Source: the human T2T-CHM13v2.0 reference genome, Homo sapiens
Assembly: GCF_009914755.1 (NCBI RefSeq)
Contig: NC_060939.1
Reading direction: 5' to 3' (one strand)
DNA: 64,000 bases
Shown here: in pieces, positions 10,596-50,199 of the stretch
How the letters are laid out: each line of letters starts with the position of its first letter
Position numbering within the stretch: position 1 is the stretch's first letter
Translations under genes and position numbers: made by a program
Notes under the pieces: generated by a model
Databases searched by the model: none
The model's input: only the letters and a program-made list of their open reading frames with translations
Told to the model about the DNA's origin: nothing

Positions 10596-12922
10596 AAGTT
10601 CTATTTACAATTTTTAAAAATAGCTTCAACAGATTATAGTAAGTTTGTTACTTGCTATTATATAGTTATCCAACTATAACATTCAAGTTTTGTTTCACAA
10701 GTTTCTTTTTATCCTAACACAACCTTCTCACTCTCCAAGCCACGATGTCATCATTATCATCATTTTAAGATCTGAAAATCTGAATTTTAAAAATTTTAAA
10801 AGGTCAGCTCCTTCAATATACCCAGCCCCCTTTTTTTTCTATTTCAAATATTAGGGAGTATTCAGTATGACTTTTTTGGGGGAAAACATGCTTGGAACGT
10901 TGGAATTGTTATTACTATTTATTATTTGCACCCTCTACTAACCCAATCCAGTCCAATCACCAACACGTTCTCCAAAATTTCTTTAAATTGAGATTTTCAA
11001 GAGATGTTTATATTAATAAGCAGATTAAGTGACGCATTTACATTTGCTTTCTCTTCCATGCAACATCAGGGTGCCTGCATTGGAAATGGAATACATGACC
11101 AGCAAATGAATGGATGTGTCACATGCAAACAGCATGACTGGAAATTTAAGAAGCAAAATGATAAGAACCTTAGGGAACGCAAAATTCATAAAAGTTTAGA
11201 ATTACAAGAGGCCTTAATAGGCCATTTAATCCATTCCAATAACAACAACCCCAGATGACAATCTATCCTATTTTTAAAAGGCTCCAGATTTCCAACCTCC
11301 CTAGATATCTCATTCTGCCATACAACCTTGTCATGTGATTTGGGGGAAATATTATGACTGTTCTTTGCCCTTCCTAATGCTATCTTTTCTCAAATAATAT
11401 AGCAATACATCTTAACTCACTTCCAAGATATATAAATGTGTATAGGTGCAGAATACGTGTGTGTGTGTGTGTGTCTCTATACATATATACGTACATTTAT
11501 GCATAAGACAGGCACCTAGGACATTCAATTTTGCTTGTATAAACGCAGGCTATGGAAACACATATATCAAAGAGACATACTCATCCCACACTAATCACAA
11601 CAGGCACTATGAAACAATGTCACAGAACAATTTTGGTCTAAAAATATCCAGTAGAAATCAATTTCATAAAACCTGAGGTAAATAGGTTTCTTCCCACTAT
11701 GAATAATCATAGTTTCTTTCCCTTCTACAAATACTGCCCCATTTTGAGCAACCACCACTAACAGAATTGTAAAAATATAATATATACATAGGTACTAGAC
11801 CCAAACAGACAATGTTTTAACGTTTGATTTTTCAAACCACTTAGCTAACAATCATTTTGGAAAAGGGCCCAATGAAAAAGATAGTGATGGCAGAGTTCAG
11901 CCAGTGATAATGAACTAGCAGCCAGTTTTAATCAAGCAGGCCAGAGAACTGATTCAAATAAAATAAATCATTTTTGGAACAAATATAGAATGAGGAAGTC
12001 CCAAGCAAGGATAAAAAAAAATGTGTCTGTTAGGAAATACAATAAAATGTTAACCATGAAATGCCACCTCTGGAGATGGAATTACAAAGATGGGTTAGTT
12101 TGTTCAGATTTGTTATTCCCATCATTTAATTATCTCTATATTCTAAGTATTATAGACATTTCTTAAACTAAGACAAATCTGTCCCTGCGTTTCACAGCTC
12201 TCTAAGATAACATGTCTTTTACATAACCTCCTGGGAGAGGTGGTACAAGCTCCTGTCCTCCTCGTGTCTCCCAGTAACCTGCCACCCATCACAGAACAGA
12301 TTTCACCATGTTCCCCGGGGTAGCTCCTGTCATCACCATCATCATCCTCATCTCACGCTTAAGACTAAACAATGCGCCCCGCCTCGCCTCCCGGTTGCAA
12401 AGGCTTTATAATTTGTTGTTTTATTGGGGCGGGAGATTTGGAGAAAGGTTTAGCAGATGATGAGCTGCCCTCACCCAAAGGCAGAGGAGAGGAGGAAGAC
12501 ACGTCGTCCCAGCCTCCACCCCGCTAAAGGCGGCCGGCGCCTGGGGACACCGGGGTCGCGGCACTCCCCGGACCCTGAGAGGGAGTCGGCCGCCGCCCGC
12601 GGACCGAGCCCCAGCCGGGGCAGAGGAGCTGGTCAGCAGATAAAGGAATGAAGCAGAAAGAGACGCGACCACAGCGGGGCCGGGGCACAGACGTTGTAAG
12701 CCGCTGGAGGGGCGGGTCTCTCGGCCCTCTCCGCGGGCGCCTCGGCTTCTACGCTGCTCCGAGGCGCCCGGGCGGCAGGAGGCCTCTAGAGCCGGGGACC
12801 CGGGGGATCCGCGGCGCGCCAGGAGGGCTCCCCCAGCTCGCCTGCCGCCCACCCGGGACCCCAGCAGCCCCGCTCGGCTGCAGTCCCGAAACGGCCCCGG
12901 CCGGCCCTGCGCGGCCGGCAAA

Positions 12923-12929
12923 GCACACA

Positions 12930-12969
<40 letters not shown>
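12923..12969. repeat. (CA)n/(TG)n microsatellite at the start of HERC1 intron 1
   Basis: Directly visible CA run with a short CG interruption. Confidence 0.97.
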
Positions 12970-12972
<3 letters not shown>

Positions 12973-13004
12973 CCAGGAGGACGGTAGATGATGCGTTACC
13001 GTAC

Positions 13005-13130
13005 GTGGCTCTGGAGCTGGCGGGGTGGGGCGCGGCTCCGGCGACCCGAGCCCGGCTCCGCAGAGGCTGCGGCGGTCGCGTCCTTTATTTTTGCTGCAGC
13101 AGCAGCGACTTGTCAAAGGGAAAGACGTAA
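13005..13130 (-). other. HERC1: HERC1 exon 1 (non-coding 5'UTR; TSS approximate, could extend to ~13160)
   Basis: Minus strand reads ...GCAGCCTCTGCGGAGCCGGGCTCGGGTCGCCGGAGCCGCGCCCCACCCCGCCAGCTCCAGAGCCAC|GTACGG, matching my recollection of the HERC1 mRNA leader. No ATG; inside the CpG island; MIR422A ~37 kb away fits the locus. Confidence 0.85.
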
Positions 13131-13819
13131 GAGGCGGCGGCAGCAGCGGCGGCGTCAGGCGAGTCTCACGAGATTTGGGCGGAACTCTCGCGCAGCCGGG
13201 AGCCCTCGCCCCGCCCAACAGGCCCAGCGCGGGAGGTGAAAGGGGAACCGAGAGGAAGGCGGCTGAGGTGGAGTTGGGGGTTGAGCGAAAAGGGGAAAGG
13301 GATTTGGGAGCGAGGGGAGCCAAGCTAGGTGCTGGGGACACTTTGCTACCGCGCGGCCCTCACCCTTCAGCCGTCGCGGAATCCGGGCAGCCCCGACCGC
13401 CTGCGGGGACCTGACTCCACAGATGAAGCACAATTGGGGGCGTTTCACAAAGGGTGGTGAGGAGTGGGGGGCCATGCAGTGTGCCCCCTTTTCCTCGTGG
13501 TGGGCAGGGAAGACCCCGCCGCCAGGCGAAGGGACACGTGTTACGGCCGGCGGCAGGGCCAGGGCCTCACCCCTTTATCTCCGCCTCGCACCCGGCGCCC
13601 CACGCTCTTTATCTCTCATCGCAGCGGCCCCGGCCCTCCGGCCGGCTAAGTTCAATCACATAAAAGCGTTTCACTTGACCTACTCTTCCACCTTGTTCAT
13701 GTCTTTGCGCCTTATGGGACTGCCAGAACCCTGCAGATGCCAGGGCCTGGCTCCTCGGTTTTCTTTTCTGCTTGGGAACACAGTAGTGTCCTTTGGGTGA
13801 CTTACATCCTTGATCATGA

Positions 13820-40276: not shown

Positions 40277-41108
<832 letters not shown>

Positions 41109-41343
41109 GTGAGTATAAACAAATGGGGAGGTTTGCGGACTGAACTCTGAACATTCCTGTGTTCAGAGGTTAGGAAATTATGGAAGAACCAGGAGAGGGG
41201 ACTGAAGAGACAGGGTGTGTGTATGTGTGTGTGTGTGTATGTGTGTGTGTAGCAAGGAGAGAGGAGAGACTGTGAATGATCCTTGGGTAACTGCAGTCCA
41301 TGTCTGTCTGTATGTCTTGTACCTCTGAGTTTGTGTAGCAGAG

Positions 41344-41885
41344 GACAGCCACATGGACTTTGAGTCTGCAAGCAAAGTTCCAGGCATGCAGTGAAAGTTC
41401 AGTGACCTCCCCAAAAAGGGTCCATAAACTCAGTTCATGGGTCTCTCCAAGAAGCCCCTACAACTTGAGTTCAATGCAGTCCTCAAGAATGTCCTGTTGG
41501 ACCTGAGTTTATCAGCCTCCCCAGACAGCCTCACAGTTAGAGTCAGTACATTTCCTAAGAACCCCCTGCCTGAATTCAGTGAGCCCCTGCAGCCTAAATT
41601 TCGCACATTTCCCAGAAAGGTCCCACAGCCTCAGTTCAGTCACTTCGCTAGGGTGTCCTTAGAATCTGAGTTCTGAGCACTTCTCAAAGGTTCCTGCAGC
41701 CCGAGTTCAAAGCATTTTGACCTCCCTGCAGGCTGATTCCCTCTATGTCCTACCCCCAGGAAACCCCTGTGCCTCTAGTCCCCATCACTCCAGGCTCACC
41801 CTCAGGCTCTAAGTTACCAAGGCCCAAGGCCAGGAAGGCATGTGAAGCCAGGAGTCTTTTACTTCAGGGAAGAAAGGACACTAGG

Positions 41886-41917
<32 letters not shown>

Positions 41918-42165
41918 CTGCTTACTCTGACAAAGGCCTCTGCCCCTTGCTGGCAGCCTAGTGTCCCCATCTGCCAAGCCCCTAGGAGACCCTCAGTGGT
42001 GGCCACAGGTAGATCAGGGTGCAGACTCAGGATGGTGAGAAAGAAGGATCCCAGGAGAGAAGGGGGCTGAGTCTCCCTGGCAGCTCTGTCTTTCTCCCAT
42101 TTTTCTCTTTCTCTCACCTCTGCTGGTAGCAACACCCAGGTCATGCACCCTGAATGGACTCTACA
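41344..42165 (+). pseudogene. Degenerate unprocessed PRAM1-like (FYB/ADAP family) pseudogene: exon-2-like (41344-42008) and exon-3-like (~42119-42165) remnants
   Basis: Translation across frameshifts gives DSHMDF/SLQAKFQA...SDLPKK, 12-aa repeats (KKPLQLEF, PEFISLPR, STFPKNPLPEF, TFPRKVPQPQF, LQPEFKAF), RPLPLAGSLVSPSAKP and RRPSVVAT G|gtagat, colinear with recalled PRAM1. In-frame stops at 41392, 41425 and 41674. Confidence 0.8.
41388..41740 (+). repeat. Degenerate ~36-bp tandem repeat, ~10 units
   Basis: Units resemble GCAGCCTGAGTTCAGTGCACTTCCCAAGAAGGTCCCT, recurring every ~35-37 bp with one shortened unit. Confidence 0.85.
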
Positions 42166-42469
42166 GTGAATGGGAGGAGCAAAGGGAAAGGGAAGGCATA
42201 GAAGGCCAAGGGAGTCCTAAGCTAGGCCAGCATCTTGGCAAGGAGCTGGCAGAGCTCCCCAATGTTAGAGAGCTCAACACCACTCCCCTTGGGAGAATCT
42301 CTGATGTTAGAGGGCTCTTCGATACCCCCTAACCCTCAGGAAAAAATGTTTGGGGCTGGGCGTGCCAAGGGCTCTGGTCCTCAGTCTGCTGCAGAGAGTA
42401 GAAAAACATTTATTCAAAACTAGTCTCTAACCCCCTCAATGCCAAAAAAGTTTATCCTGATATCAACAG

Positions 42470-43780
<1,311 letters not shown>

Positions 43781-50109: not shown

Positions 50110-50199
50110 CCAGGGAGGACAAAGCTTGGCTCAGGGACAGAGAGCCCATCTGCAGCAGAGAGACTCAGGCCTTCTGACCCTAAGTCCAGTGCTTCTCTC
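50110..50199 (-). ncRNA. MIR422A: MIR422A precursor (mature miR-422a at 50169-50190), MIR-SINE derived
   Basis: Reverse complement of 50169-50190 is ACUGGACUUAGGGUCAGAAGGC; the 90-nt precursor GAGAGAAGCACUGG...CUCCCUGG matches as recalled; adjoins the MIR core GAGGAAACTGAGGCCCAG. Confidence 0.95.

What the first reader, a model, noticed from the sequence alone, without database searches (positions are those of the whole stretch)
41344..42008. Fossil of a lost PRAM1-like (FYB/ADAP family) adaptor gene between HERC1 and DAPK2
Seen: a ~36-bp (12-codon) degenerate array preceded by GAC AGC CAC ATG GAC TTT g AGT CTG CAA GCA AAG TTC CAG GCA (DSHMDF/SLQAKFQA) and KFSDLPKK. The units read KKPLQLEF, PEFISLPR, STFPKNPLPEF, TFPRKVPQPQF and LQPEFKAF. 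The block ends with RPLPLAGSLVSPSAKP and RRPSVVAT-G|gtagat. Knowledge (recalled): PRAM1's large second exon starts ESHQDFRSIKAKFQASQPEPSDLPKK, carries 12-aa repeats (STFPKKPAQPEF, PEFNSLPR, EFKAL), contains RPLPPASSLGHPPAKP and ends RRPSAASI-D in phase 1. The order of all motifs is colinear. Inference: this is a diverged, frameshifted paralog with stops at 41392, 41425 and 41674. I know of no annotation for it, but cannot check.
Basis: partly seen in the sequence, partly recalled or inferred. Interest (0 to 1): 0.92.

Follow-up and report, generated by a model that had tools for sequence, protein, structure and literature searches.

The report
Decayed partial copy of PRAM1
Between HERC1 and DAPK2 lies a broken, unannotated copy of two exons and one intron of the immune adaptor gene PRAM1, most likely a dead partial duplicate made early in placental mammals rather than a lost ancient gene.

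Summary

The homology is not compositional. PRAM1 exon 2 DNA hits 41342-41736 at E 9e-17. Reversed and codon-shuffled controls reach at most 34 bits against 79.7. Both exon borders align to the base.

Homology continues through intron 2 and a truncated exon 3 to about 42235, so this is an unprocessed DNA-level copy. No trace of exon 4, exons 5-8 or the hSH3 domain appears in the window or the next 24 kb, although a simulation says the hSH3 exon should usually be found.

The relic carries the 12-residue repeat array. That array is present in 85 eutherian PRAM1 proteins and absent from 5 marsupial and 1 platypus proteins. The relic shares 12 eutherian-only residues against 1 outgroup-only residue.

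It is therefore most likely a truncated duplicate of PRAM1 itself, made in the eutherian stem. An ancient fourth FYB-family gene is unlikely. RefSeq annotates nothing here, and four full-text searches found no report. The finding is real and well spotted, but of an ordinary kind.

The parts
41342..41343 (+). AG aligned base for base with the splice acceptor of PRAM1 exon 2
   Evidence: The pairwise DNA alignment puts ag|GAC of the window opposite ag|GAG of PRAM1. Upstream of it no homology exceeds background.
41344..42008 (+). Relic of PRAM1 exon 2. It is 665 nt against about 1405 nt in PRAM1. The best reading path has at least 5 stops and about 5-6 frame changes.
   Evidence: blastn gives E 9e-17 for 41342-41736, and 69 of 74 orthologues hit here.
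41344..41436 (+). N-terminal block (DSHMDF / SLQAKFQA / KFSDLPKKGP / TQF). It has a 2-nt and a 1-nt deletion and stops at 41392 and 41425.
   Evidence: Identity to PRAM1 is 70.7% over 92 nt, K2P 0.37. The profile of 82 orthologues has its top hit here among 4142 six-frame peptides, at E 7.5e-4; the next best is E 0.7.
41389..41720 (+). Degenerate 36-nt (12-codon) repeat array of the PKKPxQPEF type. It holds about 9 units, against about 28 in human PRAM1.
   Evidence: Autocorrelation at lags 36 and 72 exceeds all 500 shuffles. The unit motif occurs 3 times here against 1 in the rest of the window's six frames.
41886..41917 (+). (TC)16 microsatellite inside the exon 2 relic, with no counterpart in PRAM1
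   Evidence: Called by Tandem Repeats Finder. It is the only part of the relic that matches elsewhere in the genome.
41931..42008 (+). C-terminal block of exon 2. QRPLPLAGSLVSPSAKP corresponds to PRAM1's RRRPLPPASSLGHPPAKP. A 34-nt deletion follows, then RRPSVVAT plus G.
   Evidence: Identity is 73.3% over 75 nt, K2P 0.35. blastn gives E 4e-5 for 41934-41982. It is the top hit of the C-block profile, but only at E 0.13.
42009..42117 (+). Relic of PRAM1 intron 2. The donor GT is kept at 42009-42010, but the AG acceptor of exon 3 is lost.
   Evidence: Shown by the alignment. Over 42009-42250 identity is 62.8% across 191 nt, and 0 of 600 background genomic segments reach its score.
42118..42165 (+). 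Relic of PRAM1 exon 3. It is 48 nt against 68 nt because of a 19-nt deletion, and is followed by a retained GT donor at 42166-42167.
   Evidence: Shown. PRAM1 exon 3 was identified from the locus and from protein P0001.
42166..42235 (+). Relic of the first ~70 nt of PRAM1 intron 3. Detectable homology ends here.
   Evidence: Homology shown. No exon 4 signal lies downstream.

Best explanation
Window 41344-42235 is a dead, unprocessed, partial copy of the PRAM1 gene on chr19p13.2. A stretch of PRAM1 genomic DNA was copied at the DNA level into the HERC1-DAPK2 intergenic region. The stretch ran from about the exon 2 acceptor, through intron 2 and exon 3, into intron 3.

The copy was made in the eutherian stem lineage. 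That is after PRAM1 had acquired its 12-residue repeat array and before the living placental orders split, very roughly 100-170 million years ago.

As far as can be seen, the copy lacks a promoter, exon 1 and exons 4-8, which hold the tyrosine motifs and the hSH3 domain. It therefore most likely never encoded a working adaptor and has drifted neutrally since. The damage now includes stops, frameshifts, 34-nt and 19-nt deletions, a microsatellite and a lost acceptor. It has no present function.

Shown: the homology, its extent, the conserved splice-site positions and the affinity to eutherian-type PRAM1. Inferred: that the copy was partial from the start, its age, and its neutrality.
For: Homology:
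- blastn gives E 9e-17, with the C block at E 4e-5.
- Reversed DNA scores 28 bits, reversed protein E 0.36, and 100 codon shuffles reach at most 34.0 bits against 79.7 for the real sequence.
- 69 of 74 orthologues hit only this region.
- Independent N-block and C-block profiles both have their top hit of 4142 peptides here, in the right order.

Unprocessed copy:
- Acceptor and donor align to the base.
- Intron 2, exon 3 and the start of intron 3 are 62.8% identical over 191 nt, and 0 of 600 background segments reach that score.

Partial copy:
- No exon 4.
- No exons 5-8 or hSH3 in 64 kb plus 24 kb.
- PF14603 searched genome-wide finds only FYB1, PRAM1 and FYB2 above cut-off.
- In a simulation, an hSH3 exon drifted by K 0.3, 0.4 or 0.5 was found in 38, 26 or 10 of 40 runs. 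Observed K2P is 0.35-0.37.

Eutherian origin:
- The array motif count has a median of 10 (range 2-20) in 85 eutherian PRAM1 proteins. It is 0 in 5 marsupial and 1 platypus PRAM1 and 0 in 3 amphibian FYB-like proteins. The relic has 3.
- Of 53 comparable columns, the relic matches the eutherian majority alone at 12 and the outgroup majority alone at 1. Identity reaches 66% to eutherians and 45-47% to outgroups.
- In the tree the relic is sister to 70 eutherian PRAM1 proteins. The split from marsupials plus platypus has support 100/98.
- At N-block position 20 the relic has F, as do 6 of 6 outgroups and 0 of 70 eutherians. This fits a branch-off before the crown group.

Single copy and not masked as a repeat.
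Against: - The AU test does not reject placing the relic outside therian PRAM1 (p 0.156, lnL difference 15.2, 72 columns). Monophyly of eutherian PRAM1 excluding the relic has only 61/51 support.
- The array motif was defined by me after seeing the sequences.
- Absence of the 3' exons could equally come from a later deletion. Short exons such as exon 4 (77 nt) have low detection power.
- Exon 1 and the promoter would not be detectable in any case.
- Only one monotreme and five marsupial predicted proteins stand for the outgroup.
- The age rests on recalled neutral rates, not on a calibration made here.
- No other mammalian genome could be examined, so the date and the 'never functional' claim are inference.
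- An 82-codon stop-free stretch (79 aa from its ATG) survives at 41437-41673. This is mildly unexpected under long neutrality, but I did not test it.
Confidence: 0.68

Rival explanations
1. A complete second PRAM1-like gene (a whole-gene duplicate) once worked between HERC1 and DAPK2. It was later lost, and its promoter, exon 1 and exons 4-8 have since been deleted or have decayed beyond recognition.
For: - Both splice sites of exon 2 and the donor of exon 3 are still GT/AG-compatible.
- An 82-codon stop-free stretch (79 aa from its ATG) persists at 41437-41673.
- Differences from PRAM1 in the N block fall 13, 10 and 4 on codon positions 3, 1 and 2. This is my hand count on the alignment.
- Short exons have limited detection power (at K 0.5: 10 of 40).
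Against: - Nothing was found for the most conserved part of the family, the hSH3 exons, in 88 kb on either strand. Simulated detection was 26-38 of 40 at the observed divergence.
- Homology stops about 70 nt into intron 3, where exon 4 should follow closely.
- Three protein searches returned only PRAM1 orthologues. Where a species gave several entries they were identical in the blocks compared.
- The codon-position skew is expected from constraint on the PRAM1 side alone.
Confidence: 0.17
2. The relic is a fourth ancient member of the FYB1/FYB2/PRAM1 family, dating from the early vertebrate genome duplications and lost in mammals. This is the deep reading of the reader's title.
For: - The AU test cannot reject a position outside therian PRAM1 (p 0.156).
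- From recall only, 15q22 and 19p13 share several paralogous gene pairs.
Against: - Intron 2 is still 62.8% identical at the DNA level, and the conserved exon blocks are 71-73% identical.
- The relic has the repeat array that marsupial, platypus and amphibian relatives lack.
- It shares 12 eutherian-specific states against 1.
- The amphibian FYB-like proteins gave no hit in the relic.
Confidence: 0.03
3. The copy arose through RNA or a mobile element. For example, a reverse-transcribed piece of unspliced PRAM1 pre-mRNA, or a fragment captured during repair, rather than a segmental duplication.
For: The copied segment is short (about 0.9 kb now, about 1.6 kb in PRAM1), contains an intron, and starts close to an exon border.
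Against: I looked for no poly(A) tail, target-site duplication or flanking element of matching age. After about 100 million years such marks would be gone. The flanking Alus are later insertions.
Confidence: 0.1
4. The resemblance is a chance match of proline/lysine-rich, low-complexity or periodic sequence.
For: - Under frameshift-tolerant BLOSUM scoring, the whole exon scores 101 here against 92 at the HERC1 CpG island.
- The C block alone is not an outlier under that scoring.
- The C-block profile E-value is only 0.13.
Against: - Reversed and codon-shuffled controls score far lower.
- DNA-level E-values are 9e-17 and 4e-5.
- The N block scores 61 against a next best of 44.
- Three independent segments, plus intron 2 and exon 3, all map colinearly on one strand within 0.9 kb.
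Confidence: 0.01

Closest known systems
PRAM1 (PML-RARA regulated adaptor molecule 1), human chr19p13.2, exons 2-3 with intron 2
   Same: - Same exon borders to the base.
- Same N-terminal block and same 12-residue PKKPxQPEF-type array.
- Same RPLP...LG..P.KP block and same exon-end RRPS... plus G|gt.
- Homologous intron 2 and exon 3.
   Different: - Five or more stops, about 5-6 frame changes, 34-nt and 19-nt deletions, and an inserted (TC)16 tract.
- About 9 repeat units instead of about 28.
- The exon 3 acceptor is lost.
- No exon 1, no exons 4-8 and no hSH3 domain were found.
FYB1/ADAP and FYB2 (the other two human genes with an hSH3 domain)
   Same: The family-wide N-terminal D-F-x-x-L-x-A-K-F motif and the proline-rich SKAP-binding type motif are visible in the amphibian FYB-like proteins P0077, P0078 and P0083 and in the relic. 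The statement that human FYB1 and FYB2 carry these motifs is recalled.
   Different: - The amphibian FYB-like proteins have no 12-residue array.
- They gave no tblastn hit in the relic.
- Human FYB1 and FYB2 N-terminal exons were not retrieved, so they were not compared directly (one search found only hSH3 exons).
Unprocessed (duplicated) pseudogene fragments
   Same: A DNA-level copy with an intron and splice-site positions retained, a parent gene elsewhere in the genome, and disabling mutations.
   Different: It is very old and short. It is not annotated in RefSeq. Similarity to the parent is only 60-73% at the DNA level, and the whole-genome protein search failed to link it to PRAM1.
Unitary pseudogenes (genes lost in a lineage but intact in others)
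   Same: A lone relic at a locus with no annotated gene.
   Different: A functional parent, PRAM1, is still present. No intact orthologue of this locus is known from the 94 proteins retrieved.

Membership tests
PRAM1 / FYB adaptor gene (functional member) | Open reading frame across the large exon | tested here: not met
   Frame 1 has stops at 41392, 41425 and 41674, and frame 3 has stops at 41718 and 41928. The motifs are spread over three frames.
PRAM1 / FYB adaptor gene (functional member) | Helically extended SH3 domain (Pfam PF14603) | tested here: not met
   The genome-wide six-frame search finds PF14603 above cut-off only at FYB1, PRAM1 and FYB2. The C-terminal profile finds nothing in the window plus 24 kb; best E is 2.5. 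Exon-wise profiles have best E values of 0.44-1.9.
PRAM1 / FYB adaptor gene (functional member) | Tyrosine motifs of the YDDV type (exons 4 and 8 in PRAM1) | tested here: not met
   No exon 4 or exon 8 homology. The functional role of these motifs is recalled.
PRAM1-derived sequence (homology, not function) | N-terminal block ESHQDFRSxxAKFQASQ...DLPKK at the start of exon 2 | tested here: met
   Identity is 70.7% over 92 nt. The profile hit is E 7.5e-4 and top of 4142 peptides.
PRAM1-derived sequence (homology, not function) | 12-residue PKKPxQPEF repeat array (eutherian PRAM1) | tested here: met
   Periodicity at 36 and 72 nt. The motif occurs 3 times in the relic, with a median of 10 in 85 eutherians and 0 in 6 outgroup PRAM1 proteins. 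The motif was defined post hoc.
PRAM1-derived sequence (homology, not function) | RRRPLP....LG.PP.KP proline-rich block and exon end RRPS..., phase 1, G|gt | tested here: met
   Identity is 73.3% over 75 nt with a 34-nt deletion. blastn gives E 4e-5. The profile E is only 0.13. That PRAM1 has a proline-rich motif bound by SKAP SH3 domains comes from a passage of 10.1101/2023.12.11.571115. Which motif that is, is recalled.
Unprocessed (duplicated) pseudogene | Intron sequence and splice-site positions of the parent retained | tested here: met
Processed (retro-copied) pseudogene | Exons joined without introns; poly(A) tract | tested here: not met
   Exon 2 and exon 3 are separated by a homologue of intron 2. 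I did not look for a poly(A) tract.
Unitary pseudogene / lost gene | Intact orthologue at the same locus in other species | not testable with these tools
   No other vertebrate genomes were available. The protein searches returned only PRAM1 orthologues, but they give no genomic context, and more than 6000 unnamed candidates were left out of each.
Ancient (pre-mammalian) FYB-family paralogue | Branches outside all mammalian PRAM1 | tested here: inconclusive
   The tree puts it with eutherians at 100/98, and characters favour eutherians 12 to 1. The AU test does not reject the outside position (p 0.156).
Transposable element or dispersed repeat | Many copies in the genome; masked as a repeat | tested here: not met
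   Only the (TC)n tract matches elsewhere. No masked repeat of 100 bases or more lies in 41118-42669. No Rfam family reaches its threshold.

The most novel reading that the evidence does not exclude
Early placental mammals had a second, working PRAM1-like adaptor gene next to DAPK2. The human relic is its remnant, and the gene may still be intact in some mammalian lineage. A weaker version of the same reading: with only about 9 units, the relic is a frozen snapshot of the PRAM1 repeat array at an early stage of its growth.
Probability: 0.12. Interest if true: 0.5.

Novelty: new member of a known kind. Interest (0 to 1): 0.3.

Why it matters
This adds one unannotated, very old unprocessed pseudogene fragment to the human catalogue.

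It also gives an independent, neutrally drifting witness of what PRAM1 exon 2 looked like in the eutherian stem. The relic already had the 12-residue array and the eutherian states at 12 positions, but it still had the ancestral F at block position 20. That helps date a rapid, lineage-specific expansion in a myeloid signalling adaptor.

It has no evident bearing on present-day function or disease. It does show that a careful reading of raw sequence can find relics that standard pipelines miss.

Tried and rejected
Searches and tests that led nowhere or discriminated poorly:
- The whole-genome search with the 79-aa open piece found only itself, so it gave no link to PRAM1.
- tblastx of the window against the PRAM1 locus was swamped by Alu matches.
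- Frameshift-tolerant BLOSUM alignment of the whole exon discriminated poorly: 101 here against 92 at the HERC1 CpG island. The C block alone was not an outlier.
- Tandem Repeats Finder did not call the 36-nt array.
- A genome search with amphibian protein P0077, meant to reach the N-terminal exons of FYB1 and FYB2, found only hSH3 exons. No direct comparison with human FYB1 or FYB2 was therefore made.

Searches for the other PRAM1 exons, all negative:
- tblastn of 74 and then 15 more proteins against the masked window.
- tblastn of 89 proteins against the 24-kb extension.
- C-terminal and exon-wise profiles.
- blastn of the 14-kb PRAM1 locus against the window and the extension.
- Smith-Waterman scans.
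- The exon 6 profile's top hit at 43396-43470 (E 1.1) has no DNA-level support, and I took it as chance.
- Intron 3 matches at 42911-43024 are Alu against Alu.
- The exon 4 region scored 6.0, which 14 of 400 background segments reached, and the alignment was a trivial end overlap.
- The upstream flank showed no homology. An earlier shuffle test on 60 nt gave 9 of 300 shuffles reaching the score.

Other negative or inconclusive results:
- The AU test did not reject the rival tree.
- Pfam found nothing in three open pieces.
- Rfam found only Alu-like and sub-threshold hits.
- Literature: the listings for 'PRAM1 + pseudogene' (13 papers), 'PRAM1 + FYB2 + FYB1' (2), 'PRAM1 + paralog' (24) and 'PRAM-1 + SKAP-HOM + ADAP + proline-rich' (5) showed nothing on a PRAM1 pseudogene or second copy. 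I read passages only of 10.1101/2023.12.11.571115 and PMC3403907. I did not ask for supplements. GENCODE and pseudogene-track annotation could not be checked.
Full report
**What is there.**
- Frame 1 gives EDSHMDF, KFSDLPKKGP, KKPLQLEF, STFPKNPLPEF and TFPRKVPQPQF.
- Frame 2 gives SLQAKFQA and RRPSVVATG, followed by gtagat.
- Frame 3 gives PEFISLPRQP, LQPEFKAF and QRPLPLAGSLVSPSAKP.
- Frame-1 stops are at 41392, 41425 and 41674. Frame 3 adds stops at 41718 and 41928.
- The 36-nt periodicity is real. Autocorrelation is 0.384 at lag 36 and 0.394 at lag 72, against a maximum of 0.362 in 500 shuffles. Tandem Repeats Finder does not call it.
- No masked repeat of 100 bases or more lies in 41118-42669, and RefSeq annotates nothing there.

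**The recalled PRAM1 text is right.** I took the PRAM1 locus from the same genome. Its large exon translates as ESHQDFRSIKAKFQASQPEPSDLPKK...STFPKKPAQPEF...AEFKAL...PEFNSLPR...RRRPLPPASSLGHPPAKP...RRPSAASI. The unique anchors are colinear.

**Is it more than chance?** At the protein level:
- tblastn of exon 2 puts all hits below E 0.01 at 41344-41835. The best is E 4e-6 unmasked and 8e-4 with masking and composition correction.
- Of 74 PRAM1 orthologues, all eutherian, 69 hit 41.0-42.0 kb. The best is E 6e-8, and no other place in the window got a hit below E 0.1.

At the DNA level:
- PRAM1 exon 2 hits 41342-41736 at E 9e-17, and its 3' block hits 41934-41982 at E 4e-5. All are on the plus strand and colinear.
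- Controls: reversed DNA scores 28 bits, reversed protein E 0.36, and 100 codon shuffles reach at most 34.0 bits against 79.7.

With profiles of the two unique blocks, built from 82 and 85 orthologues:
- Each profile has its top hit of 4142 six-frame peptides here. The N block scores E 7.5e-4 (next best 0.7).
- The C block scores only E 0.13.

A cruder frameshift-tolerant score was less discriminating. It gave 101 here against 92 at the HERC1 CpG island, and the C block alone was not an outlier. The relic is single copy in the genome apart from its (TC)n tract.

**Anatomy.**
- The exon 2 borders align to the base: ag|GAC against ag|GAG, and CAG|gt against TAG|gt.
- The conserved blocks are 70.7% (92 nt) and 73.3% (75 nt) identical, with K2P 0.37 and 0.35. 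They carry 2-nt, 1-nt and 34-nt deletions.
- Homology goes on past the donor. Window 42009-42235 matches PRAM1 intron 2, exon 3 (with a 19-nt deletion, acceptor lost, donor GT kept) and the start of intron 3. Identity is 62.8% over 191 nt, and 0 of 600 background genomic segments reach its score.
- So this is an unprocessed, DNA-level copy, not a retro-copy of spliced mRNA.
- Upstream of the acceptor nothing exceeds background.

**What is missing.**
- Exon 4 should follow closely, because most of human PRAM1 intron 3 is an Alu. It is not detectable.
- Exons 5-8, including the highly conserved hSH3 domain, are not detectable anywhere in the window or in the 24 kb up to DAPK2. This holds for tblastn, profiles, blastn and Smith-Waterman scans.
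- Genome-wide, PF14603 passes its cut-off only at FYB1, PRAM1 and FYB2.
- In a simulation, a 165-nt hSH3 exon drifted by K 0.3, 0.4 or 0.5 was recovered in 38, 26 or 10 of 40 runs with the same blastn settings.
- At the observed K of about 0.36 its absence is therefore informative. It is not conclusive, and it cannot separate 'never copied' from 'later deleted'.

**Where it belongs.** Further searches added 5 marsupial and 1 platypus PRAM1 proteins and 3 amphibian FYB-like proteins.
- The marsupial proteins are 351-371 aa. P0089 is 644 aa, but about 320 residues at its N-terminus have no counterpart in the other four and look like upstream mis-prediction. The platypus protein is 480 aa. None of them has the PKKPxQPEF array.
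- A unit motif that I defined post hoc occurs a median of 10 times (range 2-20) in 85 eutherian proteins. It occurs 0 times in the 6 outgroup and 3 amphibian proteins, 3 times in the relic, and once in the rest of the window's six frames.
- Over 53 comparable columns of the two unique blocks, the relic agrees with the eutherian majority alone at 12 and with the outgroup majority alone at 1. Identity is up to 66% to eutherians and 45-47% to outgroups.
- The single outgroup-like state is F at block position 20, found in 6 of 6 outgroups and 0 of 70 eutherians. It fits a branch-off before the crown group.
- A maximum-likelihood tree on 72 columns puts the relic as sister to all 70 eutherian PRAM1 proteins. 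The split from marsupials plus platypus has support 100/98, but the eutherian clade excluding the relic has only 61/51.
- The AU test does not reject the relic lying outside therian PRAM1 (p 0.156). The tree alone is therefore not decisive. The shared array, the 12-to-1 character count and the still-alignable intron carry the argument.

**Age.** K is about 0.36 in the constrained blocks, and intron identity is about 63%. Taken with recalled human-lineage neutral rates, these suggest roughly 100-170 million years. This is a rough inference, not a calibration made here.

**Interpretation.** The best reading is a truncated duplicate of PRAM1 genomic DNA (exon 2 to intron 3), inserted between HERC1 and DAPK2 in the eutherian stem and decaying neutrally since. 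The main rival is a whole second gene that worked for a time and later lost its 3' half. That cannot be excluded without other genomes. An ancient fourth FYB-family member is unlikely, and chance is excluded.

PRAM-1 is described as an ADAP homologue of myeloid cells that binds SLP-76, SKAP-HOM and Lyn (passage of PMC3403907). SKAP SH3 domains are said to bind a proline-rich motif of PRAM1, FYB1 and FYB2 (passage of 10.1101/2023.12.11.571115). That the RPLP block is that motif is my recollection.

**Novelty.** RefSeq has nothing here. Four full-text searches found no paper on a PRAM1 pseudogene or second copy. GENCODE and pseudogene tracks could not be checked. The finding is real and a good catch, but it is an ordinary kind of object: an old unprocessed pseudogene fragment.

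Noticed in passing
L003:2536-2685 (human PRAM1 exon 2, chr19): Human PRAM1 holds 4.2 perfect tandem copies of a 36-bp unit encoding PPPPEVTDLPKK. The perfect identity points to a very recent expansion, and the copy number may vary between people.
   Followed up: no
proteins P0089-P0094 (marsupial and platypus PRAM1): Marsupial and platypus PRAM1 proteins lack the 12-residue repeat array altogether. The array therefore appears to be a eutherian innovation that roughly doubled the protein's length.
   Followed up: partly
window 12300-13650: The HERC1 promoter CpG island gives spurious proline/arginine-rich matches to the C-terminal part of PRAM1 exon 2 under frameshift-tolerant scoring, with scores of 68-92. 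This is a false-positive trap for searches of this type.
   Followed up: yes
window 43396-43470 (+): This is the top hit of the PRAM1 exon 6 profile among 5512 peptides (E 1.1, 7.9 bits). It lies 1.2 kb downstream of the relic on the same strand but has no DNA-level support, so it is probably chance.
   Followed up: partly
window 41215-41250 and 41886-41917: A (GT)18 microsatellite lies just upstream of the relic and a (TC)16 microsatellite lies inside it.
   Followed up: no
window 40865-41117 and 42891-43052: The masked repeats flanking the relic give SRP-RNA-like Rfam hits below threshold, as Alu elements do. Human PRAM1 intron 3 also holds an Alu, with a short repeated sequence on each side of it, so that intron was much shorter before the insertion.
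   Followed up: partly
proteins P0082 and P0087: Two predicted 'PRAM1' proteins (cotton rat and a bat) also carry Pfam PF15909. They look like read-through fusions with a neighbouring gene in the annotation.
   Followed up: no
window 50110-50199 (-): MIR422A, the only annotated gene between HERC1 and the window's end, lies 8 kb downstream of the relic on the opposite strand. I did not examine it.
   Followed up: no
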